Sequence record: NC_018855.1
Strand: one strand, 5' to 3'
Origin: Escherichia phage HX01
Length of the DNA stretch: 64,000 nt
Shown: piece by piece, positions 19,600 to 33,252 of the stretch
Position numbering within the stretch: the first letter of the stretch is position 1
How the letters are laid out: the number at the start of each line of letters is the position of its first letter
Notes under the pieces: model-generated
Told to the model about the DNA's origin: nothing
Database searches by the model: none
The model's input: only the letters and a program-made list of their open reading frames with translations
Program-made: the position numbers and the translations under genes

Positions 19600-19933
19600 T
19601 CTCGATGATTTAAATCTAGAAATCGTTGATGAATCCCCTTCTTTGGAAGGGGAGGACATTCGCAAAGAACGAGTGTTTAATGAATCTCTTAAAATTGTCC
19701 GTTCAGCAATGGAAAATGTCATTCAAGAGATTCTGATTACACTTGAAGACGGTTCCCATCATATAGTCTATATTACAAAACTAGACTGGGTTGATGGTAA
19801 AATCGTAATGGACTTTGCAGTTCTTGACCAGGACAGAAAAGCAGAACTTGCACCACATGTTGAAAAATGTGTTACAATGCAAGTACAACAAGCTTTTAAT
19901 GAACGGACCAAGAAAAAATTTAAATTCTTTTAA
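19571..19933 (+). CDS. 40: gp40-like head assembly protein (by synteny)
   Basis: 120-aa ORF between uvsX and gene 41; alternative start at ATG 19592 overlaps the uvsX stop. Confidence 0.5.
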   Translation: MTKWKISMNNLDDLNLEIVDESPSLEGEDIRKERVFNESLKIVRSAMENVIQEILITLEDGSHHIVYITKLDWVDGKIVMDFAVLDQDRKAELAPHVEKCVTMQVQQAFNERTKKKFKFF

Positions 19934-19942
19934 GGAGTTATC

Positions 19943-21385
19943 GTGGTAGAAATTATTTTGTCTCATCTAGTATATGACCAGGCTTATTTTTCTAAGGTCT
20001 GGCCTTATATGGATTCTGAGTACTTTGAGCGTGGACCGGCAAAAAATGTCTTTAAAATTATAAAGAGCCACGTTAACGAATATAATGCAATGCCGTCTAT
20101 CAATGCATTAAAGGTGGCTTTAGATAACAGTTCTTTAACTGAAGCCGAATATAAAGGAACTTCAGACCTAATTGAAAAATTGGCTGATACTCCTGAAGAC
20201 CATGAATGGTTGGTTAAAGAAACTGAGAAATATGTCCAGCAAAAAGCGATGTATAATGCTACGTCCAAAATCATTGAGATTCAGTCTAATGCTGAACTAC
20301 CTCCAGAACAACGTAACAAGAAAATGCCTGATGTAGGAGCTATTCCTGATATTATGCGTCAAGCACTTTCAATTTCGTTTGATAGTTATGTTGGACACGA
20401 CTGGATGGAAGACTATGAAGCACGCTGGCTTTCTTATCTAAACAAAGCACGTAAGGTCCCGTTCAAATTAAACATTCTGAATAAAATCACTAAAGGTGGT
20501 GCTGAAACCGGTACACTGAATGTTTTAATGGCCGGTGTTAACGTTGGTAAATCTTTAGGCCTTTGTTCACTTGCTGCAGATTATCTTCAAACAGGTCATA
20601 ATGTTCTTTATATTTCTATGGAAATGGCTGAAGAAGTTTGTGCTAAGCGTATAGATGCAAACATGCTTGACGTATCACTCGATGATATTGATGATGGTAA
20701 CGTATCTTATGCTGAATATAAAGCCAAGATGGAAAAATGGCGTTCAAAATCCACATTAGGACGTTTAGTAGTTAAACAGTATCCTACTGGCGGAGCTAAT
20801 GCTAATACATTCCGTGCATTGCTTAATGAATTGAAACTCAAGAAGAACTTTGTGCCATCTGTAATCATGGTTGATTACTTAGGTATTTGTGGGTCTTGTC
20901 GTATCAGAGTTTACACTGAAAATAGTTACACATTAGTTAAAGCTATCGCAGAAGAACTTCGTGCATTAGCAGTAGAATCTGAAACAGTTCTATGGACTGC
21001 AGCTCAAGTAGGACGTGCAGCATGGGATGCTTCGGATATGAACATGAGCGATATTGCAGAATCAGCAGGTTTACCAGCAACGGCAGATTTCATGTTGGCC
21101 GTAATTGAAACCGAAGAACTTGCACAAGCTGAACAACAACTTATCAAACAAATCAAATCACGTTATGGTGATAAGAATAAGTGGAATAAATTCCTGATGG
21201 GTGTACGTAAAGGCAACCAGAAATGGATTGAGATTGAGCAAGAAGGCATGAACACACCTAACACAGTAAATGAAAACGCAGGTGCTCAGATGCGTCAGGC
21301 AGAGGTGAATCGTACGGAACGCGTAGGTAAAGCCAAAGCAACACGTGCTGACCTAGATAGCTTAGCCAATGAGTTAAAATTTTAA
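19943..21385 (+). CDS. 41: gp41 replicative DNA helicase (DnaB family)
   Basis: 480 aa with GTG start and GGAG ribosome-binding site; Walker A GVNVGKS, T4 gp41-like N-terminus. Confidence 0.9.
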   Translation: MVEIILSHLVYDQAYFSKVWPYMDSEYFERGPAKNVFKIIKSHVNEYNAMPSINALKVALDNSSLTEAEYKGTSDLIEKLADTPEDHEWLVKETEKYVQQKAMYNATSKIIEIQSNAELPPEQRNKKMPDVGAIPDIMRQALSISFDSYVGHDWMEDYEARWLSYLNKARKVPFKLNILNKITKGGAETGTLNVLMAGVNVGKSLGLCSLAADYLQTGHNVLYISMEMAEEVCAKRIDANMLDVSLDDIDDGNVSYAEYKAKMEKWRSKSTLGRLVVKQYPTGGANANTFRALLNELKLKKNFVPSVIMVDYLGICGSCRIRVYTENSYTLVKAIAEELRALAVESETVLWTAAQVGRAAWDASDMNMSDIAESAGLPATADFMLAVIETEELAQAEQQLIKQIKSRYGDKNKWNKFLMGVRKGNQKWIEIEQEGMNTPNTVNENAGAQMRQAEVNRTERVGKAKATRADLDSLANELKF

Positions 21386-21390
21386 TAAAA

Positions 21391-21408
21391 AGGAGACTTC
21401 GGTCTCCT
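21391..21408 (+). terminator. hairpin after gene 41 (weak terminator)
   Basis: AGGAGAC-ttcg-GTCTCCT stem-loop, short T tract. Confidence 0.35.
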
Positions 21409-21414
21409 TTCGGG

Positions 21415-21444
21415 GTTTACATCTTCCTCTAGGCGTGATATGAT
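21415..21444 (+). promoter_or_regulatory. early promoter (sigma70-type)
   Basis: GTTTAC at -35, 17-nt spacer, TATGAT at -10. Confidence 0.5.
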
Positions 21445-21473
21445 GTACTTACACAAACCAAGAGGAAAACATT

Positions 21474-21848
21474 ATGAATATGTCTCAAGCAATTTTTACT
21501 GCAATCACCGAAAACACAACTGTTGAAGTAGTTTCTCCGCTGGCAACCTACGTTATTCTTGCACCTAAAACTATTGTATCTCGTATGGAAAACATGGGCA
21601 AACGTATCGTACAAATTGTTGGAGCCGGAAATCAAAAACTTGATTATCTACGAACCATCAAAGCTTATGAACATTTCCAACTCGAAAAAGGTTCTCCTAT
21701 CCAGGTAGAACTCGTAAATGGTGATATCGTTCGAGCAATGTTCCATCATTTCTATGCATTGAATGACCCGTCTAAAGCGGTTCGTTTAATTGCATACGAC
21801 GCAAACCAAAACGAAATCAACGCAGATGTATCTAAATTACGTTTTTAA
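21474..21848 (+). CDS. hypothetical early protein (124 aa)
   Basis: ATG ORF with AGAGGAAAA ribosome-binding site downstream of an early promoter. Confidence 0.55.
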   Translation: MNMSQAIFTAITENTTVEVVSPLATYVILAPKTIVSRMENMGKRIVQIVGAGNQKLDYLRTIKAYEHFQLEKGSPIQVELVNGDIVRAMFHHFYALNDPSKAVRLIAYDANQNEINADVSKLRF

Positions 21849-21877
21849 GTTTACTTCTCCGGTAGTTGTGTTATTAT
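21849..21877 (+). promoter_or_regulatory. early promoter
   Basis: GTTTAC, 17-nt spacer, TATTAT, followed by the recurring AGACCTATCAA motif. Confidence 0.5.
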
Positions 21878-21903
21878 AGACCTATCAACTACTGGAGAAC
21901 AAA

Positions 21904-22221
21904 ATGAAAACCATCGATTGTAAAGCAGAATTTAAGATTTTTTATCACGGTTCAAGTAGTTCAGCTAACATCGAAAACATGCTTTGTCCTCCTGAGGAAA
22001 CAGGAGTTCTGTCTGAAACTGGACGTAAGAAAAACTTGGATCGTGTATTCTTTACTGAAGATATCGGTTTAGCAAAGATTTATGCAGGACGAGCAGCACG
22101 CTCTTATGGAGGTGAACCACGTCTCTATCGAGTAATTTCTCCGGTAGACGTAGTTCAAATGAATAATACTAAAGGTGCTACAGTTTATCACGCTGAATGG
22201 GCATTTTGCGAGGAAATATGA
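21904..22221 (+). CDS. hypothetical early protein (105 aa)
   Basis: ATG ORF with GGAG ribosome-binding site. Confidence 0.55.
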   Translation: MKTIDCKAEFKIFYHGSSSSANIENMLCPPEETGVLSETGRKKNLDRVFFTEDIGLAKIYAGRAARSYGGEPRLYRVISPVDVVQMNNTKGATVYHAEWAFCEEI

Positions 22222-22409
22222 GCAAATTAACTAAAGTTACTTTTACCGGTTGGTTTAAAAGCGGTGAGATGTTCACTAAAGATATCATGTTATCAGGTGA
22301 TCGCGAAGAAATCGAGTGGGTTGCGGTACAACTTGCTGAAGTGAACAAAGCATTAGTTAAAGCATTTGTTAATGACGAGAAAGTTTTTGAAGCTGATTTC
22401 AGAGGATAA
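22218..22409 (+). CDS. dmd: Dmd-like antitoxin (discriminator of mRNA degradation)
   Basis: Track ORF trimmed to ATG 22218 (ATGA overlap, GAGGA ribosome-binding site); the 63-aa product (KVTFTGWFKSGEMFTKDIM...AEVNKALVKAF) resembles T4 Dmd as recalled. Confidence 0.55.
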   Translation: MSKLTKVTFTGWFKSGEMFTKDIMLSGDREEIEWVAVQLAEVNKALVKAFVNDEKVFEADFRG

Positions 22410-22410
22410 T

Positions 22411-22623
22411 ATGTATTCAACCGTGTTTAAACCATCAACATACGAATTTGCATCAACTACACAATGGAAAGCTCTTATTCTGGAAGGATGGGAACTAATG
22501 ATGGACTGTGAAGCATCTGAAAAGTTTCCACACGGCAAAGTGGACTTCGTTAAATTTGCTGTACGTCCGACTAAACGACAGATTCGTCAAGAAAAACGCA
22601 AATTTCGCAAAAGTTTAAAATAG
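22411..22623 (+). CDS. hypothetical protein (70 aa)
   Basis: Track ORF trimmed to ATG 22411 with GAGGA ribosome-binding site, 1 nt after the dmd stop. Confidence 0.45.
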   Translation: MYSTVFKPSTYEFASTTQWKALILEGWELMMDCEASEKFPHGKVDFVKFAVRPTKRQIRQEKRKFRKSLK

Positions 22624-22625
22624 CT

Positions 22626-22655
22626 GTTTACAAGCATCGCATACTGTGTTACTAT
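22626..22655 (+). promoter_or_regulatory. early promoter
   Basis: GTTTAC, 17-nt spacer, TACTAT-like -10. Confidence 0.4.
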
Positions 22656-22683
22656 CTTTCTATCAACTACAGAGGAAATTGAA

Positions 22684-23052
22684 ATGAAAAAATTAATCGC
22701 TTTAGCAATGGTATTTGGATTAACCGGATGTGGTGCCAACGGCTTTATCCCTAATAATGTTGGGCAACTGATTTACAATCCGAATGTTAAACAGTATGAC
22801 CAACCTAAAGTTGAAGTGGAAGACCCGGTTACTGTAGGTAATCGAATGATTCAAGCTGATGCCCATGCTCAACATTATCGTGACTCTGATACTGTAGCAT
22901 TGCCAAAAGAACAACGCGTTAAAGAACATTGTCTACAGGCTACTGAAATCGCATTCATTCGCTATGTTGAAACAACTGGTAAAGAGCCTACCCAGAAACA
23001 AATCGCAAATAACTACGTCCAGTGTATTGAACGTTTAAACAAATTTAATTAA
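22684..23052 (+). CDS. putative lipoprotein (122 aa)
   Basis: N-terminal signal peptide with lipobox LTGC. Confidence 0.55.
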   Translation: MKKLIALAMVFGLTGCGANGFIPNNVGQLIYNPNVKQYDQPKVEVEDPVTVGNRMIQADAHAQHYRDSDTVALPKEQRVKEHCLQATEIAFIRYVETTGKEPTQKQIANNYVQCIERLNKFN

Positions 23053-23055
23053 TTG

Positions 23056-23086
23056 GTTTACGCCAAAGTTAAAACAAGATATTATA
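23056..23086 (+). promoter_or_regulatory. early promoter
   Basis: GTTTAC, 17-nt spacer, TATTAT-like -10. Confidence 0.4.
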
Positions 23087-23113
23087 AACATAACAAATCA
23101 AGAGGAAATTAAC

Positions 23114-23362
23114 ATGGAATTATTCGTAGCTAGTTCAGTAGCGGTTTTAATCGCAGGTATTGGTTCAATCATCATTTACATGTTGCCTTGGGTAATCGCA
23201 CTTATTCGTGGCACAAAAAGCACAACAGCAATCTTTTTTGTATCTTTACTCTTTAACTGGACGATGATTGGTTGGATTGGAACTTTAATTTGGTCTATCG
23301 TTGCCGAAAAGAAATCTGCCCAGCAGCCTCAACAAGTAATTATTATTCGCGAAAAAGAATAA
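23114..23362 (+). CDS. Imm-family superinfection-immunity-like membrane protein (82 aa)
   Basis: Two transmembrane segments and a LPWVIALIRG...LLFNWTMIGWIGTLIW pattern typical of the phage superinfection immunity family as I recall it. Confidence 0.45.
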   Translation: MELFVASSVAVLIAGIGSIIIYMLPWVIALIRGTKSTTAIFFVSLLFNWTMIGWIGTLIWSIVAEKKSAQQPQQVIIIREKE

Positions 23363-23366
23363 ACTT

Positions 23367-23396
23367 GTTTACATTATAGATGGACTATAGTATAGT
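23367..23396 (+). promoter_or_regulatory. early promoter
   Basis: GTTTAC, 17-nt spacer, TATAGT, followed by TAGTCCTATC motif. Confidence 0.5.
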
Positions 23397-23425
23397 AGTC
23401 CTATCAAATCAACTAAGGAGTTAAA

Positions 23426-23719
23426 ATGAAAAAGTTATCATTGGCAGCAATCTTACTTGCAGTATCATGTGCACCAGCTCCAGTTACGGCAGGTTATGAT
23501 AAAGACCTCTGTGAGTGGTCAATGACTGCAAATCAAGAAGATGTTGAACAACAAATCTTCTCTGATATCATGAACATCACTAAACGAGACCGTCCTAATA
23601 TGGTTAATAAAGTTGTTGAACAACTTAAGTCTGGCGGTATCATGCAGTACAACTATGTTTTGTATTGTGACCCTAATTTCGATAACAAAGATATCGTAAC
23701 CGAAATCACAGGTGAATAA
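23426..23719 (+). CDS. sp: Spackle (Sp) periplasmic protein
   Basis: 97 aa, same as T4 Sp; signal peptide, then GYDKDLCEWSMTA...KSGGIMQYNYVLYCD closely matches T4 Sp as recalled. Confidence 0.75.
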   Translation: MKKLSLAAILLAVSCAPAPVTAGYDKDLCEWSMTANQEDVEQQIFSDIMNITKRDRPNMVNKVVEQLKSGGIMQYNYVLYCDPNFDNKDIVTEITGE

Positions 23720-23720
23720 T

Positions 23721-24371
23721 ATGATTTATTATATGCACAAAAATGCGCCATTTAAATATGGTAAATTTCCTAATGCACAATGTTATAATATAACGCCGAA
23801 CGAAAATAATAACGGATATCATATTGGTGTAATTTTTGTAATTGTTAAAGATAACGAAATCGTTGCCTGGGCAGATTTTAAAGGTACAACATATGATGTT
23901 AATCCTGTGCCTTTCACATATTACAATATAATGGATTTGGCATATGATTATAATTGGTTTAATCATGACACGTTGGCTCATATTGAAGGTGTAGGATTTG
24001 ACATCTCTTATTCTAGCTATTCATTATGTCCTATGAGCCGAGCTCACGGTAAAGATGCCTCATATTTTTCATTTCGGAAACGTGTAAACTTCAAACGTAG
24101 TACAGAGTATGTTGGTGGACTCTTTGTTAAAGATAATAAAATAACCCGTATTAGTTATCCTCTAAGTGTAGGTCAAAAAGATGTTGATGTTGATTTAGAC
24201 TTAACCGAAAATAACATTAATCATATTGCTTCTGTATATTTTGATATCGATGAAAAAATTGTAGTGTGTGGATACGAATTACCACCTGAAGAAAAGGCTG
24301 AAGCAATTGAAGTCGAATTAGAAATTTCTGTTGACGACCAAATATTTAATGCATTTATGAATCGAGGTTAA
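23721..24371 (+). CDS. hypothetical protein (216 aa), 61.2-like by position
   Basis: Track GTG start 23712 trimmed to ATG 23721. Confidence 0.5.
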   Translation: MIYYMHKNAPFKYGKFPNAQCYNITPNENNNGYHIGVIFVIVKDNEIVAWADFKGTTYDVNPVPFTYYNIMDLAYDYNWFNHDTLAHIEGVGFDISYSSYSLCPMSRAHGKDASYFSFRKRVNFKRSTEYVGGLFVKDNKITRISYPLSVGQKDVDVDLDLTENNINHIASVYFDIDEKIVVCGYELPPEEKAEAIEVELEISVDDQIFNAFMNRG

Positions 24372-24372
24372 A

Positions 24373-24570
24373 ATGACTACTGCAATTTGCACTGGTTCTA
24401 AAATTAGTGTTTTTACAAGTTTTGAAGATTATGAAGTTGTTTCAAAACACCAATACCATATTAGCGTAAAAGCTAATGATGGTGTAATTTGGAATATTCC
24501 ACAGTATGAAGGCACTACATATGAAGTCACAGATATAAATGGTGACAAAGCAATCTTTGTAATTGATTAA
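24373..24570 (+). CDS. hypothetical protein (65 aa)
   Basis: ATG ORF 1 nt after the upstream stop. Confidence 0.45.
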   Translation: MTTAICTGSKISVFTSFEDYEVVSKHQYHISVKANDGVIWNIPQYEGTTYEVTDINGDKAIFVID

Positions 24571-24589
24571 ATATACTCAGGAGGTACCT

Positions 24590-25057
24590 ATGGGTATTAT
24601 TAACACTGCAATAGATTCTGTTTATGCATATAAGTTTATTCGACTAATGCAAAAACCTTTTACCGAATGGAAAGCGTACGAAGCCAAAATCATCGATGAA
24701 CGTGGAAGTGTTCTTAAACGTCCTTCTACTCCTGAAGAGAAAGCGGCTTATACACCTTTTCATGCTTCAGTTCGTTCAATGAAGCGAATGATGAGCACTG
24801 TTCCCGGTCTTAATGGAATGGCCTCAATGATGTCTGCCTGGAGTGCTGTAGCTTCACGCTATAACATTACGGAAGAACAACAGAAAGAAATATTTAAAGA
24901 ACTCCCTTTATTTGAGGATATGGTTGCTGGTGATTCAGGCGGCAGTCCTCAAGCTATTGCATCAGGAACAACTACAGGTGCAGTCGTAAATAAAGGTCCA
25001 GAACAAATTCCTTCCAAGAAAAGAAAGCGAATTAAAGTAAATATTAATAAGTTGTGA
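24590..25057 (+). CDS. hypothetical protein (155 aa)
   Basis: Track ORF trimmed to the ATG preceded by a strong GGAGGT ribosome-binding site. Confidence 0.5.
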   Translation: MGIINTAIDSVYAYKFIRLMQKPFTEWKAYEAKIIDERGSVLKRPSTPEEKAAYTPFHASVRSMKRMMSTVPGLNGMASMMSAWSAVASRYNITEEQQKEIFKELPLFEDMVAGDSGGSPQAIASGTTTGAVVNKGPEQIPSKKRKRIKVNINKL

Positions 25058-25096
25058 TATGATGGCCTTATTAATTTAAGGCCTCTGGAGAATACT

Positions 25097-26119
25097 ATGG
25101 CTGAATGGATAGATAATGAATTTGCTTATCGTGCGTTTTCTCACCTCCCTCGTTTTAGACAAATCAATAATTCAAGCACATTTAAATTAACATTTCGTTG
25201 TCCAGTTTGTGGCGACTCCCAGACAGATGCAATGAAAGCTCGCGGATGGTATTATGGCGGTACTCCTGGTAATGTACATTGCTATAACTGCCAATACCAC
25301 AATACAATTTCCGGATACTTAAAAGAGTATGATGAAGAGCTTTACCGCGAATATCTAATGGAAGTTCGTAAAGAAAAAGCTAGAATGGAACCAAAGATTG
25401 AAAAGGTTCCTGAACATAAACCAGAACCGGAGAAAAAGACTATAAATTCTTTGCCGTCTTGTTCTCGTCTGGACAAGCTGCCTGAAGAGCATCCTATTGT
25501 GAAATATGTTAAGTCTCGATGCATTCCTAAAGAATCATGGAACAGATTATGGTTCACATTAGAATGGCCCAAATTGGTCAACAAGATTCAACCCGGTACG
25601 TATAAGAAAGAGATTCCGGAACCACGTTTAGTGATTCCTATTTTTAATAAAGACGGGAAGGCTGAATCATTCCAAGGGCGTGCACTTCGTAAAGATGCTC
25701 CTCAGAAATATATCACTATTAAAGCGTTTGAGTCTGCAACAAAAATTTATGGTGTTGAACGTGTTAAGGAAGGAGACGTCTGGGTAATGGAAGGCCCTAT
25801 TGATAGTTTATTCATACCCAACGCAATCGCTATTACAGGCGGCTCAATAGATTTAGATGTGGTACCATTTAAAGAACGTCGGGTATGGGTAATGGATAAT
25901 GAACCTAGGCATCCGGATACTATAGCTCGCATGAAGCGATTAGTTGATGCAGGCGAACGTGTCATGTTCTGGGACCGAGCTCCGTGGAGATCAAAGGATG
26001 TGAATGATATGGTAATGAAAGAAAATGCAACACCACAAGAAATTTTAGAATATATGAAACAGAATATTTCAAGTGGGTTGCATGCTAAAATGAGATTATC
26101 TCGTTATTCGAAGATTTAA
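25097..26119 (+). CDS. 61: gp61 DNA primase
   Basis: 340 aa; N-terminal zinc ribbon (CPVCGDS...CYNC) and TOPRIM-like region; syntenic with T4 gene 61. Confidence 0.85.
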   Translation: MAEWIDNEFAYRAFSHLPRFRQINNSSTFKLTFRCPVCGDSQTDAMKARGWYYGGTPGNVHCYNCQYHNTISGYLKEYDEELYREYLMEVRKEKARMEPKIEKVPEHKPEPEKKTINSLPSCSRLDKLPEEHPIVKYVKSRCIPKESWNRLWFTLEWPKLVNKIQPGTYKKEIPEPRLVIPIFNKDGKAESFQGRALRKDAPQKYITIKAFESATKIYGVERVKEGDVWVMEGPIDSLFIPNAIAITGGSIDLDVVPFKERRVWVMDNEPRHPDTIARMKRLVDAGERVMFWDRAPWRSKDVNDMVMKENATPQEILEYMKQNISSGLHAKMRLSRYSKI

Positions 26120-26313
26120 ACAAGCCCTATAATAGCAAAGGCCAAATCAACTACAGTATCCAATGGAACAGAAGGAACTATAATACCATGGGCAACTAAC
26201 AATGGTGCAATCCCGAAGTTCCATGAAATAATGCCACCTACAACTATTGCAGCGATAGCAGTTTTCTTTTTATTGCCTTTAATAGCGTTGATTAACGATG
26301 GAAGTTTAAACAT
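26116..26313 (-). CDS. small membrane protein (65 aa) on the opposite strand
   Basis: Minus-strand ORF with strong AAGGAG ribosome-binding site 6 nt upstream of its ATG; Gly/Ala/Ile-rich hydrophobic product; convergent with and overlapping the gene 61 stop by 4 nt. Confidence 0.45.
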   Translation of the reverse strand: MFKLPSLINAIKGNKKKTAIAAIVVGGIISWNFGIAPLLVAHGIIVPSVPLDTVVDLAFAIIGLV

Positions 26314-26403
26314 AATATCTCCTTAGTTACCTTATTATTTATTACGCTTTATAAAATTAATGTTAGAATTAACTTCTCTTATACTGAATTGAAAGGAAAA
26401 ATA

Positions 26404-26925
26404 ATGGCACACTTTAACGAATGTTCACAACTTATTTCTGGTGTTGATAAAGCAGAAGAAGCTTATTTTAATGCTCTGATTCACGAAGATAAAGACCCAC
26501 TGCAGGTAATGCTTGATATGCAGAAATCTTTACAGGTTCGTCTGGCAAATGACAAGCCTGAACATAACAAACATCCTGATGAATTAGCCACTGCTGGCGA
26601 TGTTGTTGATTGGCTGCGTAATCAGAAAGATTATATTGATGATGAATTCCGTGAACTGCTGACTTCACTTGGTGGTATGAGCAATGGTGAAAAAGCCGCT
26701 AGCTCTGTATGGAAGCCGTGGAAGGCACAACATGCTGAATATCGAAATCGTCGTATCGATGAACTGTCTCCTGAAGACCAGCTTGAAATTAAATTCGAGA
26801 TGATTGATATCCTCCACTTTGTTCTGAATATGTTCCAAGGTCTGGGTCTTTCCGCTGAAGAAATCTTTAAACTGTATTACCTGAAAAACCAACACAACTT
26901 TGAACGCCAGGATAATGGTTACTGA
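26404..26925 (+). CDS. 56: gp56 dCTPase/dUTPase (dCTP pyrophosphatase)
   Basis: Track TTG start 26389 trimmed to ATG 26404; MAHFNECSQLI...PLQVMLDMQ...ETAGDVVDWLR...DDEFRELLTSLG...EDQLEIKFE closely matches T4 gp56. Confidence 0.9.
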   Translation: MAHFNECSQLISGVDKAEEAYFNALIHEDKDPLQVMLDMQKSLQVRLANDKPEHNKHPDELATAGDVVDWLRNQKDYIDDEFRELLTSLGGMSNGEKAASSVWKPWKAQHAEYRNRRIDELSPEDQLEIKFEMIDILHFVLNMFQGLGLSAEEIFKLYYLKNQHNFERQDNGY

Positions 26926-26931
26926 TTAAGT

Positions 26932-26939
26932 TATAAATA
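26932..26939 (+). promoter_or_regulatory. late promoter (TATAAATA) for soc
   Basis: Exact TATAAATA 32 nt upstream of the soc ATG. Confidence 0.55.
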
Positions 26940-26970
26940 CACCTGTAATTAAACAACAAAGGAGTTAATT

Positions 26971-27207
26971 ATGGGTGGTTACGTTAATATTAAAACCTTT
27001 ACACGTCCGGCTGGTGAAGGCAAAGAAGTTAAAGGTATGGAAGTTTCTGTACCGTTTGAGATTTATTCAAACGAACATCGGATTGCGGATTCTCATTACC
27101 AAATCTTTCCATCAGAAAAGGCAGCATATTCTACTGTAGTTTCTGATGCAGCTGATTGGAAAACTAAGAACGCTGCAATGTTTACCCCTACACCAGTAAG
27201 CGGTTAA
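26971..27207 (+). CDS. soc: Soc small outer capsid protein
   Basis: 78 aa; GYVNIKTF...VSVPFEIYSNEHRIADSHYQIFPSEKAAYSTV resembles T4 Soc as recalled; preceded by a late promoter and AAAGGAG ribosome-binding site. Confidence 0.8.
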   Translation: MGGYVNIKTFTRPAGEGKEVKGMEVSVPFEIYSNEHRIADSHYQIFPSEKAAYSTVVSDAADWKTKNAAMFTPTPVSG

Positions 27208-27217
27208 ATAATTTAAG

Positions 27218-27242
27218 GAATCCTTCGGGATTCCTTTTTTTG
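27218..27242 (+). terminator. rho-independent terminator
   Basis: GGAATCC-ttcg-GGATTCC hairpin followed by TTTTTTT. Confidence 0.7.
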
Positions 27243-27250
27243 TTTCTACA

Positions 27251-27280
27251 GTTTACATCCACTAAAAACTGTGTTAAGAT
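27251..27280 (+). promoter_or_regulatory. early promoter
   Basis: GTTTAC, 17-nt spacer, TAAGAT. Confidence 0.45.
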
Positions 27281-27308
27281 ATTCTTACTTACTCAAGAGG
27301 AGAACAAT

Positions 27309-27536
27309 ATGTTAAATCGCTGGATTAAACCTAATAACACATTAGGTGCTTTGATTGCTCAAGAAGTTTCGTTGAAATATGGTCTTGGATATTATGATGA
27401 TGTAGTCGTACACTCATTCATGATGGATGGTGAAGACATCAAATTTAATGCCGAAATTCGTTGGGACGATGGTGGTGTTCGTTTTGTTCGAGGAACAATT
27501 AATGCTTACAATGCTGAAGAAGTTGTTTGCTGTTAA
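27309..27536 (+). CDS. hypothetical protein (75 aa)
   Basis: Track TTG start 27240 runs through the terminator and promoter; trimmed to ATG 27309 with AGAGGAG ribosome-binding site. Confidence 0.5.
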   Translation: MLNRWIKPNNTLGALIAQEVSLKYGLGYYDDVVVHSFMMDGEDIKFNAEIRWDDGGVRFVRGTINAYNAEEVVCC

Positions 27537-27549
27537 ACCAGGCGAAGGT

Positions 27550-27750
27550 ATGATGCCTATTCCTGATACACACGAAAAAAGTTGGGAATATATCGGCGAC
27601 GGAATGATGGAAGAAGTTGTTCGTCCAAAAACAAAACAGGTTAATGCTTCAAGCTCTTCAAGTTATAATCATTCATACGTATCGTCTTGGCCTGGCGATT
27701 CTGGGTCAAGTTATTCTGATTGTGGTTCAAGCTCAGGGAGCTGTGAATGA
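27550..27750 (+). CDS. hypothetical protein with Ser-rich C-terminus (66 aa)
   Basis: Track ORF 27427-27750 overlaps the upstream gene; trimmed to ATG 27550; alternative start ATG 27511. Confidence 0.35.
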   Translation: MMPIPDTHEKSWEYIGDGMMEEVVRPKTKQVNASSSSSYNHSYVSSWPGDSGSSYSDCGSSSGSCE

Positions 27751-27926
27751 ACAAAATAGTAAAATGGTTTAAAAGCTGGAATGATGGAGTCGAACCAGAA
27801 GATTGGTTGGATGTTCTTGAAGAGAATATGGCTAAAGAATTCCAGAAACACGAAGAGAAGCTCGTCGAAGATGAAGGCGAACGTATCGTAAAACTTTATA
27901 TGGGTGAACCATCGAGGAAATTATAA
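27747..27926 (+). CDS. hypothetical small acidic protein (59 aa)
   Basis: ATG ORF below the track cutoff, ATGA overlap at its 5' end and TAATG overlap at its 3' end with flanking genes. Confidence 0.3.
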   Translation: MNKIVKWFKSWNDGVEPEDWLDVLEENMAKEFQKHEEKLVEDEGERIVKLYMGEPSRKL

Positions 27927-28390
27927 TGGATGCTATGTTATTTAAAATGTATTTGCTTGAAGCCAAGTCGTTTAAACATATACCAGTAGAAGATAAGACT
28001 CCACTAGAAATAGCTATTCTCATTAACAAAAGTCTAAATAATCCGCAATATATCGTAGAAGAATTCTGCAAATTGCAGATTCCTAAAGGTTACAAAATTC
28101 GTGTAGAGCGAGTTGGAGCTATTACTCGTTCTAAAAATTCTCCGTTTAGTCTTGAAGAAGGCATAAAGGATTTAGGTTATGAATCTACTGAAAATGCAGT
28201 TTATGTGAATCCTGAAAAGCGTTTAGACCTGTTTGAAAAGCGAGACCATAAGTACTTTGCCAAAAAATACTTTATTACATCATTAGCAGATTTAATCCAT
28301 TTGCAGCGAGCTATTTGGAAATTTTTTAAGACAAAAGGTGTAGCACTAGAAACATTCTCTGAACCGGCTAGTTTTTATCTTGGTGAATAA
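27926..28390 (+). CDS. hypothetical protein (154 aa)
   Basis: ATG ORF coupled to neighbours. Confidence 0.5.
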   Translation: MDAMLFKMYLLEAKSFKHIPVEDKTPLEIAILINKSLNNPQYIVEEFCKLQIPKGYKIRVERVGAITRSKNSPFSLEEGIKDLGYESTENAVYVNPEKRLDLFEKRDHKYFAKKYFITSLADLIHLQRAIWKFFKTKGVALETFSEPASFYLGE

Positions 28391-28391
28391 T

Positions 28392-28571
28392 ATGGACCTT
28401 ATGAGTATGTTTGACGAGCCTGAAGTTGAGGCTCCTAAAGTGCATCGTAGTGAACTTGTTGATGAACTAGATAGTATTATACAACGACACGGCTTTAGTT
28501 TACCTGTTGAAGCCCTGAAAGACCTTGCATCTTATTATGACGACCCTCCACCATGGAGTCCTTGGAAATGA
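28392..28571 (+). CDS. hypothetical acidic protein (59 aa)
   Basis: Track TTG start trimmed to ATG 28392. Confidence 0.35.
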   Translation: MDLMSMFDEPEVEAPKVHRSELVDELDSIIQRHGFSLPVEALKDLASYYDDPPPWSPWK

Positions 28572-28732
28572 AAGAGAAATTGAAAGAGAAATTCTTACTA
28601 GAAATCAAGGAAAAAGACTTTGAGACATGGTATCGAATGGTGAAAGGGTTGACATTGCTTTTTAAAGCATCCTTATTCATGTTAGAACAACCTGGTCCTG
28701 ATGGACCTTTAGTAGGAAAGCTTAAAAAATAG
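28568..28732 (+). CDS. hypothetical small protein (54 aa)
   Basis: ATG ORF with ATGA overlap; below track cutoff. Confidence 0.25.
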   Translation: MKEKLKEKFLLEIKEKDFETWYRMVKGLTLLFKASLFMLEQPGPDGPLVGKLKK

Positions 28733-28761
28733 TTTACATTCCCTCCTCTCGTGTTATGATA
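28733..28761 (+). promoter_or_regulatory. early promoter
   Basis: GTTTAC, 17-nt spacer, TATGAT. Confidence 0.5.
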
Positions 28762-28787
28762 GGCTTATCTTTAAATGGAGGTCTATC

Positions 28788-29369
28788 ATGACATGTCAAT
28801 CTGAACTTCAAGAACGTGAATACCTAACAAATCTGATTGATAGCAAATTCACCCACCAAGAACAAAACATTCTCTGGGCTTGCACCGATTCTAAGGAAGA
28901 CCCGGATTTCCACTATGAATTAGACCATCTTGTTCGTAAGCATATGACTTCTACAGTACCAGTAGAACTCTACCGTGGTGTAACTCCAGAAGAAGTAGAA
29001 CGTCTTTCCCTTCTTTCTGTTGGATGCCATTGGTCTCCTGGACGAGTAACATCGTTCACAACTGATTTCAGTACAGCTCGTCAATTCTCTGGGAGATGGG
29101 AATATCAGACGTACACTATTCTTAGTCTCAGGAATGCTCCATTCATTTTTGATTACTACCAAAACATGGTTAATATTGTACTCGCCGGAAAGAACCCTAA
29201 GCATGTTATGGAAGAAACACGTGTTGATGTCCTAGATATGATTGAATCTGAACAAGAGTACATGGTTTCAAGTATCTCTAGATTTGAGATTGTGGAAATC
29301 GAAGAGTTAGAGTATGACCCTTTGTCTCGAGTATACAAAATCATTCACTTAAAGATGTTGAATTTTTAG
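28788..29369 (+). CDS. Mod-like ADP-ribosyltransferase (ModA/ModB family paralog 1)
   Basis: 193 aa with R-S-E triad pattern (LYRGV, SFTTDFSTA, ESEQEYMV); syntenic with T4 modA/modB between soc and srd. Confidence 0.6.
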   Translation: MTCQSELQEREYLTNLIDSKFTHQEQNILWACTDSKEDPDFHYELDHLVRKHMTSTVPVELYRGVTPEEVERLSLLSVGCHWSPGRVTSFTTDFSTARQFSGRWEYQTYTILSLRNAPFIFDYYQNMVNIVLAGKNPKHVMEETRVDVLDMIESEQEYMVSSISRFEIVEIEELEYDPLSRVYKIIHLKMLNF

Positions 29370-29398
29370 TTTACAACCACCACAGACGGTGTTATGAT
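29369..29398 (+). promoter_or_regulatory. early promoter
   Basis: GTTTAC, 17-nt spacer, TATGAT. Confidence 0.5.
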
Positions 29399-29428
29399 TA
29401 CTTTATCGAAACGTGAGGAGAAACCTAA

Positions 29429-30037
29429 ATGTTTATGCCGTATAACGAGTGTGAAATTGAAGAAATGGTTCGTCGTGCTCAAAACCCCGAATATCAAGAT
29501 GTATTGCAGTACGAAATTGATAGTCAATTCAGCGACATTGAACAAAGTGTACTGTGGCAGTGTATGGAAAACAAGCCAGACTGTATTCAACAGGAGTTAA
29601 GTTCAATCGTTCGTAGAAATTGGACGTCTTCTGTTCCTGAGACAATGTATCGTGGAATCTCTAAGAAAACTATGGCCACACTCGATGATAAAGGTATTGG
29701 TAGTATTATTAAATTTGACAGAGTAATGAGCTTCAGCCCAGTGTTCGGTGTAGCACGTAACTTTGCTTCGTATAATTTTTACGGAACATTTAATATGTTC
29801 TGCATCAAAGATGCACCATTTGCTTTCAACTTCCGTGAACATATGCTTAACATGATTCTGGCTGCGCCATCTTGTGAGTTCAATGGAGCTTTCCCTGAAG
29901 CGACAAGACGGTCTAATGCTAGACTTATATCTGACGAATGTGAATTTATGCTCCCTATAGGGACTACACTGCGTGTAGATTCTATTATTCAGGATGGACG
30001 TTATACAATCTGGAATCTGTCTATTGTCAGTTACTGA
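29429..30037 (+). CDS. Mod-like ADP-ribosyltransferase (ModA/ModB family paralog 2)
   Basis: 202 aa with MYRGI, SFSPVFGVA and SDECEFM (R-S-ExE pattern); paralogous to the upstream gene. Confidence 0.6.
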   Translation: MFMPYNECEIEEMVRRAQNPEYQDVLQYEIDSQFSDIEQSVLWQCMENKPDCIQQELSSIVRRNWTSSVPETMYRGISKKTMATLDDKGIGSIIKFDRVMSFSPVFGVARNFASYNFYGTFNMFCIKDAPFAFNFREHMLNMILAAPSCEFNGAFPEATRRSNARLISDECEFMLPIGTTLRVDSIIQDGRYTIWNLSIVSY

Positions 30038-30190
30038 CTGAATTGGAATAACCGGATGGAACTCAGAACCATTATAACACATAAAAAATTAAAGCATTTT
30101 ATGAAAAAAGAGTGTACACTACCTGAGGGCATGATATTATAAGCTTATCAGCTAAATGACCTTAACGTCCGTAAGACAGAGGAAAATATT

Positions 30191-30937
30191 ATGTTATCAA
30201 ATAATAAAATTAACAAAATTAATCGTCGTCTTGACCACACCAGAGCTTCTGCGAAGAGACGCTCTAAGGATTTTAACTTAGACTTTAATTACCTTAAAAA
30301 CATTCTTGATCAAAAGGTCTGCGCTTACTCAGGTGAATCTTTCAATAACTCTGTTGAAGGTGAGAAATTATCCTTAGAACGTTTTAATAATGATATCGGC
30401 TACATTAAAGGTAATGTTATCCCAGTTAAGAAAAAATATAACACGGCTCGTTCTGATTTAACATTAGAAGAACTTATTGAGAAACGTGATGCCATTGCAA
30501 GACGTATCGCTAATCCTTCTGTTCGTAAAGTAGAGAAACTTAATCTCGACGAGAAGAAATGGGCCCAAATTAAAAAGGTTTATGGTACTATTTTAAAAAT
30601 CCGAGCAAAACGTGAAAATCGTGTTAAGCATATGGCGAACATGATGAAAAATCAACCTTTATCTAACGAATCTAAACTTAGAATTGTTGCTTTGAAAGCA
30701 CGCATTAACGGCTCACATCAAGCAGAAGGCCATGAACTTACTAAACTCAACGTTCTTCTTAAAGGCTCTGACTGGAAAACTAAAACTAAATTAACTGACG
30801 CTGAATCGCTTTTCGATACATATGATAAAGTTATCCAAGGTCTGCAACGTTTTGAAAAGATTGGTTTCATTGGTAAATTAAAATTGAAACGTGGCTTACC
30901 ACTTAGCGCATCATTATTCCAACTGGTTAAAGGTTAA
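30191..30937 (+). CDS. Srd-like protein (by synteny), basic 248-aa protein
   Basis: ORF between the mod paralogs and dda.1/dda, as srd is in T4; no confident motif-level assignment. Confidence 0.35.
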   Translation: MLSNNKINKINRRLDHTRASAKRRSKDFNLDFNYLKNILDQKVCAYSGESFNNSVEGEKLSLERFNNDIGYIKGNVIPVKKKYNTARSDLTLEELIEKRDAIARRIANPSVRKVEKLNLDEKKWAQIKKVYGTILKIRAKRENRVKHMANMMKNQPLSNESKLRIVALKARINGSHQAEGHELTKLNVLLKGSDWKTKTKLTDAESLFDTYDKVIQGLQRFEKIGFIGKLKLKRGLPLSASLFQLVKG

Positions 30938-30939
30938 TT

Positions 30940-31251
30940 ATGGTTTATGTATATGCAATAGTTTATCGAGATATGGAAGGATTTACTGTCCCGGTTCCAC
31001 TTGATGAGCATCGTCCTGCGGTATTTTTTAGAAAGGATATTGCAGATAAAGTTTTCGATACTTTGAAAACACAGTATAAAACAGATTTAAAAATGGGAGT
31101 TCTAAGAATGGTCGAAACTCCGCGTAAGTTCTGGTTTAATAAGCTTGAAATGAAACACGTTAAACTAGATGCGGAGACGCAAAGATTGTATCAACGAATC
31201 CTGGACACAGGCCGTATTGTTAGTATTCCAATTGCAGGGACTTTACGATGA
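30940..31251 (+). CDS. hypothetical protein (103 aa), dda.1-like by position
   Basis: ORF coupled to dda by ATGA overlap. Confidence 0.45.
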   Translation: MVYVYAIVYRDMEGFTVPVPLDEHRPAVFFRKDIADKVFDTLKTQYKTDLKMGVLRMVETPRKFWFNKLEMKHVKLDAETQRLYQRILDTGRIVSIPIAGTLR

Positions 31252-32561
31252 CATTTGATGATTTGACTGAAGGCCAGAAAAACGCCTTCAACGTTGTTAT
31301 GGAAGCTATTAAAGAAAAGAAACATCATGTAACTATTAATGGACCTGCTGGTACAGGTAAAACAACCCTTACTAGATTCATCGTTGAAGCCCTTATTTCT
31401 TCTGGAGAATCAGGTATTATTTTAGCAGCCCCTACACATGCTGCTAAAAAGGTTCTAAGCAAACTTGCAGGTCAAGAAGCATCGACTATTCATAGCATTC
31501 TTAAAATCAACCCAACTACATACGAAGAAAACGTATTGTTTGAACAGAAAAAGGTTCCCGACTTAGCCTTGTGTCGTGTACTGTTATTTGATGAAGCGTC
31601 AATGTGCGACCGTTCTCTGTTTAAAATAATGTTAGCTAGTATCCCTAAATGGTGCACAGTAATTGGAATCGGCGACCGATGTCAAATTCGACCGGTAGAC
31701 CCAGGCGAATCAACTGCGTATCTAAGTCCTTTCTTCACTCACAAAGACTTCGTGCAATGCAACCTTACAGAAGTTAAACGTAGTAATGCACCAATTATTG
31801 ATGTTGCGACTGATATTCGTAATGGCAAATGGATTTACGATAAAGTAGTTGATGGACACGGTGTTCATGGATATACAGACCTTAAATCGTATATGATGAA
31901 CTATTTTAACGTCGTTAAAACTCCTGAAGACCTTTTCGAAAATCGAATGATGGCATTCACAAATAAGTCGGTGGACAAGTTAAATTCAATTATTCGCCGA
32001 AAACTTCTTGAAACAGAAAAACCATTTATTAAAGACGAAGTCATTGTTCTACAAGAGCCATTTACTAAGACATATAAGCTAGACGGTAAAAATATGACCG
32101 AAATGCTTTTCAATAATGGGCAATTCGTTCGTATTCGAGATGCTGTAGAAACGTCTACATTCGTTAAAGCACGTGGTGTTTCAGGCGAATATATGATACG
32201 ATACTGGAATCTTACAGTAGAAACATATGGTGATGATGAAGAATACGTCCGCGAAGATATAAAGGTTATTTCTTCTGAAGAAGAGCTTTATAAATTCAAT
32301 TTGTTTTTGGCTAAGGCCGCAGAAACATACAAATTCTGGAATAAAGGTGGTAAAGCTCCATGGAGCGAATTCTGGGATGCTAAACGCATGTTCACTAAGG
32401 TGAAGGCACTACCTGTATCAACCTTCCATAAGGCCCAGGGTATGTCTGTTGACACGGCCTTTGTTTATACACCGTGTATCCATTATGCCGATTCAGAATT
32501 AGCTAAACAGTTATTGTATGTCGGCACAACTCGTGGTCGGTTTGACGTCCATTTTATTTGA
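31248..32561 (+). CDS. dda: Dda DNA helicase (SF1B)
   Basis: 437 aa; MTFDDLTEGQKNAFNVVMEAIKEKKHHVTINGPAGTGKTT and later blocks closely match T4 Dda. Confidence 0.9.
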   Translation: MTFDDLTEGQKNAFNVVMEAIKEKKHHVTINGPAGTGKTTLTRFIVEALISSGESGIILAAPTHAAKKVLSKLAGQEASTIHSILKINPTTYEENVLFEQKKVPDLALCRVLLFDEASMCDRSLFKIMLASIPKWCTVIGIGDRCQIRPVDPGESTAYLSPFFTHKDFVQCNLTEVKRSNAPIIDVATDIRNGKWIYDKVVDGHGVHGYTDLKSYMMNYFNVVKTPEDLFENRMMAFTNKSVDKLNSIIRRKLLETEKPFIKDEVIVLQEPFTKTYKLDGKNMTEMLFNNGQFVRIRDAVETSTFVKARGVSGEYMIRYWNLTVETYGDDEEYVREDIKVISSEEELYKFNLFLAKAAETYKFWNKGGKAPWSEFWDAKRMFTKVKALPVSTFHKAQGMSVDTAFVYTPCIHYADSELAKQLLYVGTTRGRFDVHFI

Positions 32562-32570
32562 GAGAAAATT

Positions 32571-33248: not shown

Positions 33249-33252
33249 AACA

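What the first reader, a model, noticed from the sequence alone, without database searches (positions are those of the whole stretch)
26116..26313. Opposite-strand small membrane protein gene wedged between genes 61 and 56
The rest of this early region is on the plus strand, but a 65-aa hydrophobic Gly/Ala/Ile-rich ORF with a strong AAGGAG ribosome-binding site lies on the minus strand, its stop overlapping the gene 61 stop by 4 nt. No canonical late promoter precedes it, only near-matches. Antisense-oriented small membrane proteins in phage early regions are often toxins, holin-like factors or superinfection-exclusion factors.
Basis: seen in the sequence. Interest (0 to 1): 0.45.

Follow-up and report, generated by a model that had tools for sequence, protein, structure and literature searches.

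The report
Conserved late small membrane protein gene
The opposite-strand ORF is a real, strongly conserved T-even phage gene (the counterpart of T4 dam.1 / RB69ORF029w) that most likely makes a small inner-membrane protein late in infection; it is already annotated as 'hypothetical' in public genomes, it is absent from the T4 reference annotation, and its function is unknown.

Summary
Window 26116..26313(-) is a 65-aa ORF with an AAGGAG ribosome-binding site 5 nt before the ATG. Its stop shares a 4-nt TTAA with the gene 61 (primase) stop.

The window is a Mosigvirus (RB69-like T-even phage). This is the only opposite-strand gene in about 50 kb and 84 genes of early region.

It is a real gene. 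dN/dS is about 0.10. It matches PHROG 2024 (unknown function) over its full length. Homologues sit convergent to the 3' end of gene 61, abutting it in most genera, in eight Tevenvirinae genera. Three outgroup Straboviridae genera have no such ORF.

The T4 homologue (54% identity) is missing from the reference records NC_000866 and AF158101. It is called dam.1 in T4T.

A late-promoter box always lies 12-22 nt upstream. It is canonical TATAAATA in Dhaka- and Kanagawavirus and AATAAATA here. AATAAATA is the commonest natural T4 late-promoter variant. No sigma-70-like promoter was found.

The predicted protein has a basic N-terminus (+5), one transmembrane helix with invariant Trp-Asn...Pro, and a short acidic-hydrophobic C-terminal helix.

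There is no similarity to holins, Imm/Sp, defence proteins or any solved structure. The toxin, holin and exclusion readings are untested guesses. The gene itself is already known. Interest is modest.

The parts
26116..26313 (-). Coding sequence of a 65-aa small membrane protein (stop codon 26118..26116). It is the orthologue of RB69ORF029w and T4 Dam.1 and a member of PHROG 2024.
   Evidence: ORF list. PHROG 2024 matches full length, E=1.9e-27. The identical protein is on 217 public contigs. dN/dS is 0.10 against ESCO47 and L006.
26319..26324 (-). Shine-Dalgarno AAGGAG, 5 nt before the ATG at 26313.
   Evidence: Sequence. AAGGAG(G), AGGAGG or GGAGG is present in all genera examined. It is the only strong SD among 35 minus-strand ORFs of at least 60 aa in 1..50000.
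26336..26343 (-). T4-type late-promoter box, variant AATAAATA (A at -13). The predicted transcription start is about 26330, giving a 17-nt leader. The start position is inferred from the known geometry of the box at -13 to -6.
   Evidence: It is one of only 11 NATAAATA sites on both strands of 64 kb. VATAAATA occurs 6 times against 20.8+/-3.8 expected. All 5 TATAAATA sites precede an SD plus ORF. The same position holds TATAAATA in Dhaka- and Kanagawavirus, CATAAATA in Gapriver-, Jiaodavirus and ESCO47, GATAAATA in T4, and ATTAAATA in Karam- and Gelderlandvirus. The A(-13) variant is in 9 of 50 T4 late promoters.
26260..26313 (-). Residues 1-18: basic N-terminal segment (5 K, no acidic residue), predicted cytoplasmic. 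The model gives a short helix at 4-11.
   Evidence: Charge count; AlphaFold2 model.
26191..26259 (-). Residues 19-41: transmembrane helix. It carries the family-invariant W31-N32 (26223..26218) and P37.
   Evidence: Hydropathy. Invariant columns in alignments of 16 and 56 sequences. Model helix 15-41 with pLDDT 87-92.
26119..26190 (-). Residues 42-65: H-G turn, a Pro-containing loop (P47 nearly invariant), then a short hydrophobic helix (51-62) with D52 and D56. Predicted periplasmic, interfacial or re-entrant.
   Evidence: Model. This segment is hydrophobic enough for a second span only in the Tequatro/Mosig/Gapriver subfamily (KD 1.8-2.3). It is not in the Karam and Dhaka types (0.5-0.8).
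26116..26119 (.). Palindromic TTAA shared by the convergent stop codons of gene 61 (+) and this gene (-).
   Evidence: The same 4-nt overlap is annotated in T4T, RB69, Dhaka-, Karam-, Gelderland- and Kanagawavirus. It is absent in Gapriver- and Jiaodavirus.
26346..26369 (+). Context, not part of the gene: putative MotA-dependent middle promoter of gene 56 (GCTT, 14 nt, TAGAAT). It lies back-to-back with the late box and is homologous in position and spacing to T4 P(M)16.53.
   Evidence: Comparison of X01416 features and sequence with the window. Inference by homology only.
26025..26083 (-). Uncertain: hairpin inside the 3' end of gene 61, about 35-95 nt beyond this gene's stop on its own strand, followed by AUUUUCU. 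It is a possible 3' end or stabiliser of the late transcript.
   Evidence: RNA fold z=-2.5. The T4 equivalent has a 13-14 bp stem, z=-3.6. By eye on alignment A5, the arms pair in Mosig-, Tequatro-, Kanagawa- and Gaprivervirus but not in four other genera.

Best explanation
This is a genuine phage gene, the Mosigvirus orthologue of RB69ORF029w and T4 dam.1 (PHROG 2024).

Most likely it is silent early. After DNA replication starts it would be transcribed from its own gp55-type late promoter (AATAAATA, 26343..26336 on the minus strand). This is the same strand as the tail-fibre and holin late genes. The predicted short 17-nt leader carries a strong AAGGAG.

The 65-aa product would insert into the inner membrane. 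The lysine-rich N-terminus would lie in the cytoplasm, followed by one transmembrane helix. A short acidic-hydrophobic C-terminal helix would sit at or in the periplasmic face.

The invariant Trp-Asn and Pro inside the membrane helix suggest that it acts by specific helix-helix contact. The contact could be with itself or with a larger membrane protein, as small membrane regulators do, rather than through bulk membrane damage.

My best guess for the process is late envelope physiology, meaning control of lysis timing, lysis inhibition or membrane integrity. This guess is inference only, at about 0.25.

Shown here: the ORF, the SD, purifying selection, synteny across eight genera, and the conserved late-type box.
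Inferred: late transcription, membrane topology, and mode of action.
For: Real gene:
- dN/dS is 0.10 at dS 0.27-1.43.
- 684-690 of about 695 matching phage records hold at least 80% of the ORF.
- All subfamilies match PHROG 2024 over their full length.
- An HMM built only from the Tequatro/Mosig/Gapriver rows finds the Dhaka, Jiaoda, Gelderland and Kanagawa proteins (E 1e-5 to 1e-7 at Z=1e6). It does not find four control small membrane proteins.

Synteny:
- The gene is always convergent on gene 61 in eight Tevenvirinae genera.
- It is absent in Krisch-, Biquarta- and Slopekvirus.

Late control:
- A conserved xATAAATA box lies 12-22 nt before the ATG. It is canonical TATAAATA in two genera.
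- The motif is rare and otherwise marks late genes in this window.
- The A(-13) variant is common in T4.
- No sigma-70-like site lies on the minus strand upstream.
- The bidirectional hairpin at 27215-27236 would block minus-strand read-in from further right.
- In ESCO47 a tandem pair of paralogues has one CATAAATA, in front of the first gene.

Membrane protein:
- Hydropathy and the charge split of +5 N-terminal and -2 C-terminal.
- AlphaFold2 pLDDT 83.5 with helix 15-41.
- Invariant W31, N32 and P37.
Against: - No RNA or protein data were available. The T4 dRNA-seq start-site table is not held. T4 omics work used the NC_000866 annotation, which lacks the gene.
- The box is not canonical in this window, in T4, or in five of the eight genera. 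The in-vivo strength of such variants is unknown.
- The topology is uncertain. In this subfamily the C-terminal 22 residues are hydrophobic enough to be a second span.
- Nothing links the protein to lysis. The holin t gene is 25 kb away, and outgroup T4-like phages do without this gene.
Confidence: 0.75

Rival explanations
1. A holin, pinholin or antiholin-like lysis protein. It would accumulate in the membrane late and form or gate holes.
For: - It is a small hydrophobic membrane protein with a late-type promoter.
- A source calls two homologues 'holin'. These are the UniProt name of the OE5505 protein and 'holin family protein' in EAWsc9.
- A polar Asn inside a transmembrane helix favours oligomerisation (established knowledge).
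Against: - No holin family in Pfam or NCBIfam matches at E up to 10.
- PHROG 2024 has no assigned function.
- The EAWsc9 record also carries obviously unreliable names such as 'ovule protein' and 'molybdenum ABC transporter'.
- There is no charged C-terminal tail.
- Only one segment is hydrophobic across the whole family.
- The phage already has holin t with a canonical late promoter.
- From established knowledge, t mutants of T4 do not lyse, so this protein is not a sufficient holin.
Confidence: 0.12
2. One reading: an early-region toxin or superinfection-exclusion factor, expressed early or from antisense transcription.
For: - It is a small hydrophobic protein lying near the envelope-directed early genes imm-like, sp and a lipoprotein-like ORF.
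Against: - No sigma-70-like promoter lies on the minus strand upstream.
- The conserved box is of the late type.
- It shows no similarity to Imm (PF14373), which does match the neighbouring gene at 23114..23362.
- It matches no PADLOC family.
- No separate antisense sRNA promoter was seen.
- Exclusion must act within minutes of infection, which does not fit a late gene (established knowledge).
Confidence: 0.08
3. The main function is RNA-level. A late transcript starting here runs antisense into the 3' end of gene 61 and shuts down primase expression late. The peptide would be secondary or dispensable.
For: - The genes are convergent with overlapping stops.
- No intrinsic terminator was found between the ORF and gene 61.
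- A conserved hairpin lies inside the 3' end of gene 61 in four genera.
- Both strands are known to be transcribed at different times at several T4 sites.
Against: - Purifying selection acts on the amino-acid sequence, with dN/dS 0.10.
- The SD and invariant residues are conserved across eight genera.
- In Gapriver- and Jiaodavirus the gene is separated from gene 61 by a spacer, a homing endonuclease or a GC hairpin, yet the ORF is kept.
- An antisense effect could be an additional role but cannot explain the ORF.
Confidence: 0.05

Closest known systems
RB69ORF029w (NP_861719) and its Mosigvirus orthologues, all annotated 'hypothetical protein'
   Same: Same gene. It has the same position between 61 and 56, the same strand and the same 4-nt stop overlap. 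The exact window protein is in public databases on 217 contigs.
   Different: Nothing of substance. No function is attached to any member.
T4 Dam.1 (T4Tp032, ADJ39749; UniRef 'Uncharacterized protein dam.1')
   Same: 54% identical over the full length. It is convergent on gene 61 with the same TTAA overlap, has an AAGGAGG SD, and has GATAAATA 21 nt upstream.
   Different: In T4 the dam gene lies between it and gene 56. The ORF is not annotated in the reference records NC_000866 and AF158101, nor in the 1984 sequence X01416.
PHROG 2024 (unknown function)
   Same: All eight-genus variants, including the tandem paralogue of ESCO47, match full length at E 1e-20 to 1e-31.
   Different: The family has no annotation, so membership says nothing about mechanism.
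Small single-pass membrane regulators and phage lysis regulators, for example T4 antiholin RI, pinholin S21, AcrZ- or MgrB-type small proteins. This is a resemblance from general knowledge, not tested.
   Same: Size of 60-70 aa, one membrane helix with conserved polar and proline residues, and late timing (for the phage examples).
   Different: No sequence or profile similarity. An HMM of the family does not hit S21, RI, lambda S or Imm. No structural match was found in PDB. No partner is known.

Membership tests
PHROG 2024 / Dam.1 / RB69ORF029w family | Full-length profile match | tested here: met
   E=1.9e-27 over positions 1-65 of 65. The T4, Dhaka, Jiaoda, Gelderland and ESCO47-paralogue proteins also match.
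PHROG 2024 / Dam.1 / RB69ORF029w family | Position: opposite strand, convergent on the 3' end of primase gene 61 | tested here: met
   Window and eight Tevenvirinae genera.
PHROG 2024 / Dam.1 / RB69ORF029w family | Invariant W-N in the membrane helix, Pro 5 residues later, and Pro in the following loop | tested here: met
   W31, N32 and P37 are invariant. P47 and G63 are nearly invariant.
T4-type late gene | TATAAATA box placed so that transcription starts just upstream of the SD | tested here: inconclusive
   The window has the AATAAATA variant 22 nt before the ATG. Orthologues have canonical TATAAATA in Dhaka- and Kanagawavirus. The A(-13) variant is in 9 of 50 T4 late promoters. Activity was not measured.
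T4-type late gene | Transcript appears after replication onset and needs gp55, gp33 and gp45 | not testable with these tools
   The dRNA-seq start-site table of the T4 study is not held. Published T4 omics used an annotation lacking the gene.
Holins | At least one transmembrane domain | tested here: met
   Hydropathy and model helix 15-41.
Holins | Highly charged, hydrophilic C-terminal cytoplasmic tail | tested here: not met
   The C-terminal 24 residues have no K or R and end in the hydrophobic AIIGLV. The charge cluster is N-terminal.
Holins | Match to a described holin family | tested here: not met
   No Pfam or NCBIfam family at E up to 10. The BFVD fold search returns only members of its own family.
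Holins | Triggers membrane permeabilisation and endolysin release | not testable with these tools
   Needs expression experiments.
Superinfection exclusion (T4 Imm / Sp) | Homology to Imm (PF14373) or Sp | tested here: not met
   No match. PF14373 instead matches the separate gene at 23114..23362 (E=1.5e-15), and sp is at 23426..23719.
Superinfection exclusion (T4 Imm / Sp) | Early expression | tested here: not met
   By promoter inference only. No sigma-70-like site lies on the minus strand upstream, and a late-type box is conserved.
Type I toxin (Hok/TisB-like small membrane toxin) | Family match, plus a dedicated cis-antisense RNA | tested here: not met
   No protein family match. No Rfam family lies in 25000-27500. 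The opposite strand is simply the 61-56 spacer.

The most novel reading that the evidence does not exclude
A gene conserved in all eight Tevenvirinae genera examined, overlooked in the T4 reference annotation and therefore invisible to T4 transcriptomic and proteomic work that relied on that annotation, encodes a late small membrane protein. This protein would be a previously unrecognised component of T-even lysis-timing or lysis-inhibition control, or of another late membrane process. It would act through its invariant Trp-Asn...Pro transmembrane motif on a phage or host membrane partner.
Probability: 0.2. Interest if true: 0.6.

Novelty: already known. Interest (0 to 1): 0.3.

Why it matters
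The gene itself is not new. Two points are practically useful.

First, the T4 counterpart is absent from NC_000866 and AF158101. Published T4 RNA-seq and proteomics were counted against that annotation. A gene conserved under purifying selection in all eight Tevenvirinae genera examined has therefore never been measured or perturbed in the model phage.

Second, the comparative data give a concrete, testable prediction. It should be a late transcript starting near T4 17722(+), about window 26330(-). It should encode an N-in single-pass inner-membrane protein.

T-even lysis inhibition and late membrane events still have unexplained components. A universally kept late membrane protein is a reasonable candidate, though nothing here ties it to them.

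Tried and rejected
Searches that gave no functional lead:
- Pfam, NCBIfam and PADLOC scans of four to five family members at lenient thresholds found nothing meaningful. There were only chance-level hits to Borrelia P13 for the Karamvirus protein.
- The profile search of PDB sequences gave only E>0.7 noise.
- The Foldseek search against PDB gave no hit. Against BFVD it returned only members of its own family.
- The HMM search of 1.84 billion representatives found only two clusters, both from this family.
- The word-indexed search with a diverse alignment found 80 proteins, all T-even-like phage proteins.
- The IMG/VR scan found only 2 loci, both Mosigvirus.
- The Rfam scan of 25000-27500 found nothing real.

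Literature:
- Searches for dam.1, ORF029w, T4Tp032, phrog_2024 and T4 ribosome profiling returned no paper on this gene.
- The Miller 2003 T4 genome review is not held.
- The T4 dRNA-seq preprint reports 150 phage start sites, 22 of them antisense, but its table is not held.

Readings rejected:
- A spurious ORF, because of dN/dS, the SD and synteny.
- An Imm or Sp paralogue, because there is no similarity.
- A second full transmembrane span as a family feature, because the C-terminus is not hydrophobic in the Karam and Dhaka types.

Apparent gene disruptions in T4_ev240 (a 1-nt loss in an A-run) and in ERS-1 (an unverified record) may be sequencing errors. I did not use them as evidence that the gene is dispensable.
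Full report
WHAT THE WINDOW IS.
The region 25000-27300 is 97-98% identical to many Mosigvirus (RB69-like T-even) genomes. The local order on the plus strand is dmd, lipoprotein-like ORF, imm-like, sp, three ORFs, gene 61 (primase, 25097..26119), gene 56 (dCTPase, 26404..26925) and soc (26971..27207). The tail-fibre and holin late genes further right (51-61 kb) are on the minus strand. The minus strand is therefore the usual late strand.

CHECK OF THE OBSERVATION.
- The ORF at 26116..26313(-) is present and codes for 65 aa.
- The reading frame opens only 9 nt before the single ATG, so the start is unambiguous.
- AAGGAG lies at 26324..26319, 5 nt before the ATG.
- The stop codons of gene 61 and of this ORF share the palindromic TTAA at 26116-26119.
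- The protein is 60% AILVFMW. Its N-terminal 18 residues carry five lysines and its C-terminal 24 residues carry two aspartates.
- In phage SF, which is collinear with the window, this is the only opposite-strand gene among 84 annotated features over about 50 kb.
- Of 35 minus-strand ATG-ORFs of at least 60 aa in window 1..50000, it is the only one with an AGGAG-class SD.

IS IT A REAL GENE?
Yes, on five grounds.
- It matches PHROG 2024 (unknown function) end to end at E=1.9e-27.
- tblastn finds it in about 690 phage records, and 684-690 of them cover at least 80% of the ORF.
- The identical protein occurs on 217 public contigs.
- Nei-Gojobori dN/dS is 0.10 against ESCO47 (dS 1.43) and 0.10 against an IMG/VR Mosigvirus (dS 0.27). 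Across genera it is 0.1-0.4 where dS is not saturated.
- The opposite strand here is non-coding spacer, so this constraint belongs to the ORF itself.

WHERE ELSE IT OCCURS.
A homologue lies on the opposite strand, convergent on the 3' end of gene 61, in eight Tevenvirinae genera:
- Tequatrovirus, including T4, T2 and T6
- Mosigvirus
- Gaprivervirus
- Karamvirus
- Dhakavirus
- Jiaodavirus
- Gelderlandvirus
- Kanagawavirus

An HMM built only from the Tequatro/Mosig/Gapriver rows recognises the Dhaka, Jiaoda, Gelderland and Kanagawa proteins (E 1e-5 to 1e-7 at Z=1e6). It does not recognise Imm, pinholin S21, T4 RI or lambda S. All variants fall in PHROG 2024.

Three Straboviridae genera outside Tevenvirinae have gene 61 followed directly by plus-strand genes, with no such ORF. 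These are Krischvirus, Biquartavirus and Slopekvirus.

Whatever is inserted between this gene and gene 56 varies. It is dam in T4, homing endonucleases in several genera, and nothing in the window. The gene stays attached to the end of gene 61.

The exhaustive HMM search of 1.84 billion representative proteins found only this family. A wider word-indexed search found only T-even-like phage proteins.

STATUS IN T4.
The T4 homologue is 66 aa and 54% identical. It lies at NC_000866 17738..17938(+), in the 309-bp 'gap' between dam and 61. It is not annotated in NC_000866, in AF158101, or in the original 1984 sequence X01416. It is named dam.1 in the T4T record and in UniRef. Pyrodigal calls it in a recent T4 assembly. 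RB69 has carried it as RB69ORF029w since its first annotation. I found no paper that mentions it. The main T4 transcriptome and proteome study counted reads against NC_000866 features, so it could not see this gene.

CONTROL SIGNALS.
An 8-mer matching, or one step from, the T4 late promoter TATAAATA lies upstream of the SD in every genus.

| Phage or genus | Box | Distance to ATG |
|---|---|---|
| Window (Mosigvirus) | AATAAATA, 26343..26336(-) | 22 nt |
| T4 | GATAAATA | 21 nt |
| Gaprivervirus | CATAAATA | 16 nt |
| ESCO47 | CATAAATA | 22 nt |
| Jiaodavirus | CATAAATA | 12 nt |
| Dhakavirus | canonical TATAAATA | 21 nt |
| Kanagawavirus | canonical TATAAATA | 15 nt |
| Karam- and Gelderlandvirus | ATTAAATA | 14-15 nt |

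The flanking sequence is otherwise diverged.

The motif is not background noise of AT-rich DNA. In the 64-kb window TATAAATA occurs 5 times (7.8 expected). VATAAATA occurs 6 times (20.8 +/- 3.8 expected), so it is avoided. All five TATAAATA sites sit 20-85 nt upstream of an ORF with an SD. These include soc, gene 34 and holin t.

According to Geiduschek and Kassavetis (PMC2988020), 32 of the 50 listed T4 late promoters are perfect. Nine have A at -13, and most of the rest have other single deviations. One exception is a TA-to-AT change. [quoted passage not shown] The window's box is therefore the commonest natural variant.

With the box at -13 to -6, the start would be near 26330, giving a 17-nt leader that contains the SD (inference).

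The simple sigma-70 scan found no promoter-like site on the minus strand between the ORF and the bidirectional hairpin at 27215-27236 that follows soc. Read-in from further right is unlikely, and an early promoter is not apparent.

The late box lies 2 bp from a GCTT-14 nt-TAGAAT element on the plus strand (26346-26369). That element matches, in position and spacing, the T4 middle promoter P(M)16.53 in front of gene 56. The 90-bp spacer is therefore probably a compact divergent control region (inference).

THE PROTEIN.
Alignments of 16 and 56 family members show invariant W31, N32 and P37, and nearly invariant G43, P47 and G63.

AlphaFold2 with the 56-sequence alignment gives pLDDT 83.5. The model has a short helix at 4-11, a long helix at 15-41, a loop at 42-50 and a helix at 51-62.

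Hydropathy supports residues 18-41 as a membrane span in all subfamilies. The C-terminal 22 residues are hydrophobic enough for a span only in the Tequatro/Mosig/Gapriver subfamily (mean KD 1.8-2.3). They are not in the Karam and Dhaka types (0.5-0.8).

Together with the +5/-2 charge split and the positive-inside rule, the family-wide topology is most simply N-terminus in, one span, with a short C-terminal helix at or dipping into the periplasmic face.

Independent in-frame 3-residue deletions in the N-terminal half of the span are tolerated. They occur in NRG-P0074, P0004 and the T4-like OE5505. The W-N...P...H-G part is fixed. A buried Asn and a Pro kink in a single span are typical of specific helix-helix contacts (general knowledge), not of a generic hydrophobic toxin.

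WHAT IT IS NOT, AS FAR AS TESTED.
- No Pfam, NCBIfam or PADLOC family matches.
- There is no solved-structure relative by sequence or fold.
- The only structural neighbours in BFVD are its own relatives.
- The 'holin' labels on two homologues are unsupported names. One of them sits in a record that has other obviously wrong names.
- The protein lacks a charged C-terminal tail. The phage has its own holin t and its own Imm-like and Sp genes.

MOST LIKELY MECHANISM AND ITS LIMITS.
I conclude with about 0.75 confidence that this is a late-transcribed gene for a small inner-membrane protein that acts through intramembrane contacts.

Which process it serves is not shown by anything here. Late envelope physiology, meaning lysis timing, lysis inhibition or membrane integrity, is my best guess at about 0.25.

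A secondary RNA-level effect is possible. No terminator separates the ORF from gene 61, so the late transcript should run antisense into the primase gene. A hairpin inside the 3' end of gene 61 follows the ORF in four genera. Even so, the amino-acid constraint shows that the peptide matters.

VERDICT.
The gene is already annotated as a hypothetical protein, RB69ORF029w / dam.1 / PHROG 2024.

What this analysis adds:
- conservation in all eight Tevenvirinae genera examined;
- a conserved late-promoter box, canonical in two genera;
- a topology prediction;
- the point that the T4 reference annotation omits the gene.

Interest is modest at 0.3.

Noticed in passing
L014 (Escherichia phage ESCO47) 1805..2008 and 2001..2198, + strand of the locus: Two paralogues of the family sit in tandem with overlapping stop and start. 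The first is a 67-aa Dhakavirus-type copy and the second is the 65-aa orthologue. A single CATAAATA box plus AGGAGG lies in front of the first. Proteins P0005 and P0074 come from one 30-kb contig, which suggests the same arrangement elsewhere.
   Followed up: partly
window 26025..26083 (-); L003 (T4) 2974..3027 (+): A hairpin lies inside the 3' coding end of gene 61, on the strand of the small gene, 35-95 nt past its stop (z -2.5 in the window, -3.6 in T4). By eye, the arms stay complementary through base changes in Mosig-, Tequatro-, Kanagawa- and Gaprivervirus but not in four other genera. It could mark the 3' end of the late transcript.
   Followed up: partly
whole window, both strands: The near-consensus late-promoter words [ACG]ATAAATA are about 3.5-fold under-represented (6 found, 20.8 +/- 3.8 expected). 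This suggests selection against stray late-promoter-like sequences.
   Followed up: no
window 26346..26369 (+): A GCTT-14 nt-TAGAAT element has the same spacing and position as T4 middle promoter P(M)16.53. According to the T4 record, that transcript primes replication at oriA. Here it lies 2 bp from the late box of the small gene, because this phage has no dam gene in between.
   Followed up: partly
NC_000866 17626..17934 (L003 2627..2935): The T4 reference genome and AF158101 leave the dam-61 interval unannotated, although it holds the conserved 66-aa dam.1 ORF. T4 omics studies that count reads on NC_000866 features therefore miss it.
   Followed up: yes
window 23114..23362 (+): An Imm-type superinfection-immunity gene (PF14373, E=1.5e-15) sits next to sp in the 41-61 interval, as RB69 also annotates it. 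A lipoprotein-like ORF (signal ending LTGC) lies just upstream at 22684..23052.
   Followed up: no
L022 (T4_ev240) 1410..1470; L023 (ERS-1): Loss of one A in the run that encodes the KKK/KKR motif frameshifts the ORF in T4_ev240. ERS-1, an unverified record, matches in two pieces. These may be real inactivations or homopolymer sequencing errors.
   Followed up: partly
window 27215..27236: A perfect 9-bp GC-containing hairpin follows soc and has T-runs on both sides. It is a likely bidirectional terminator that insulates the 61-56-soc block from minus-strand transcription coming from the right.
   Followed up: no
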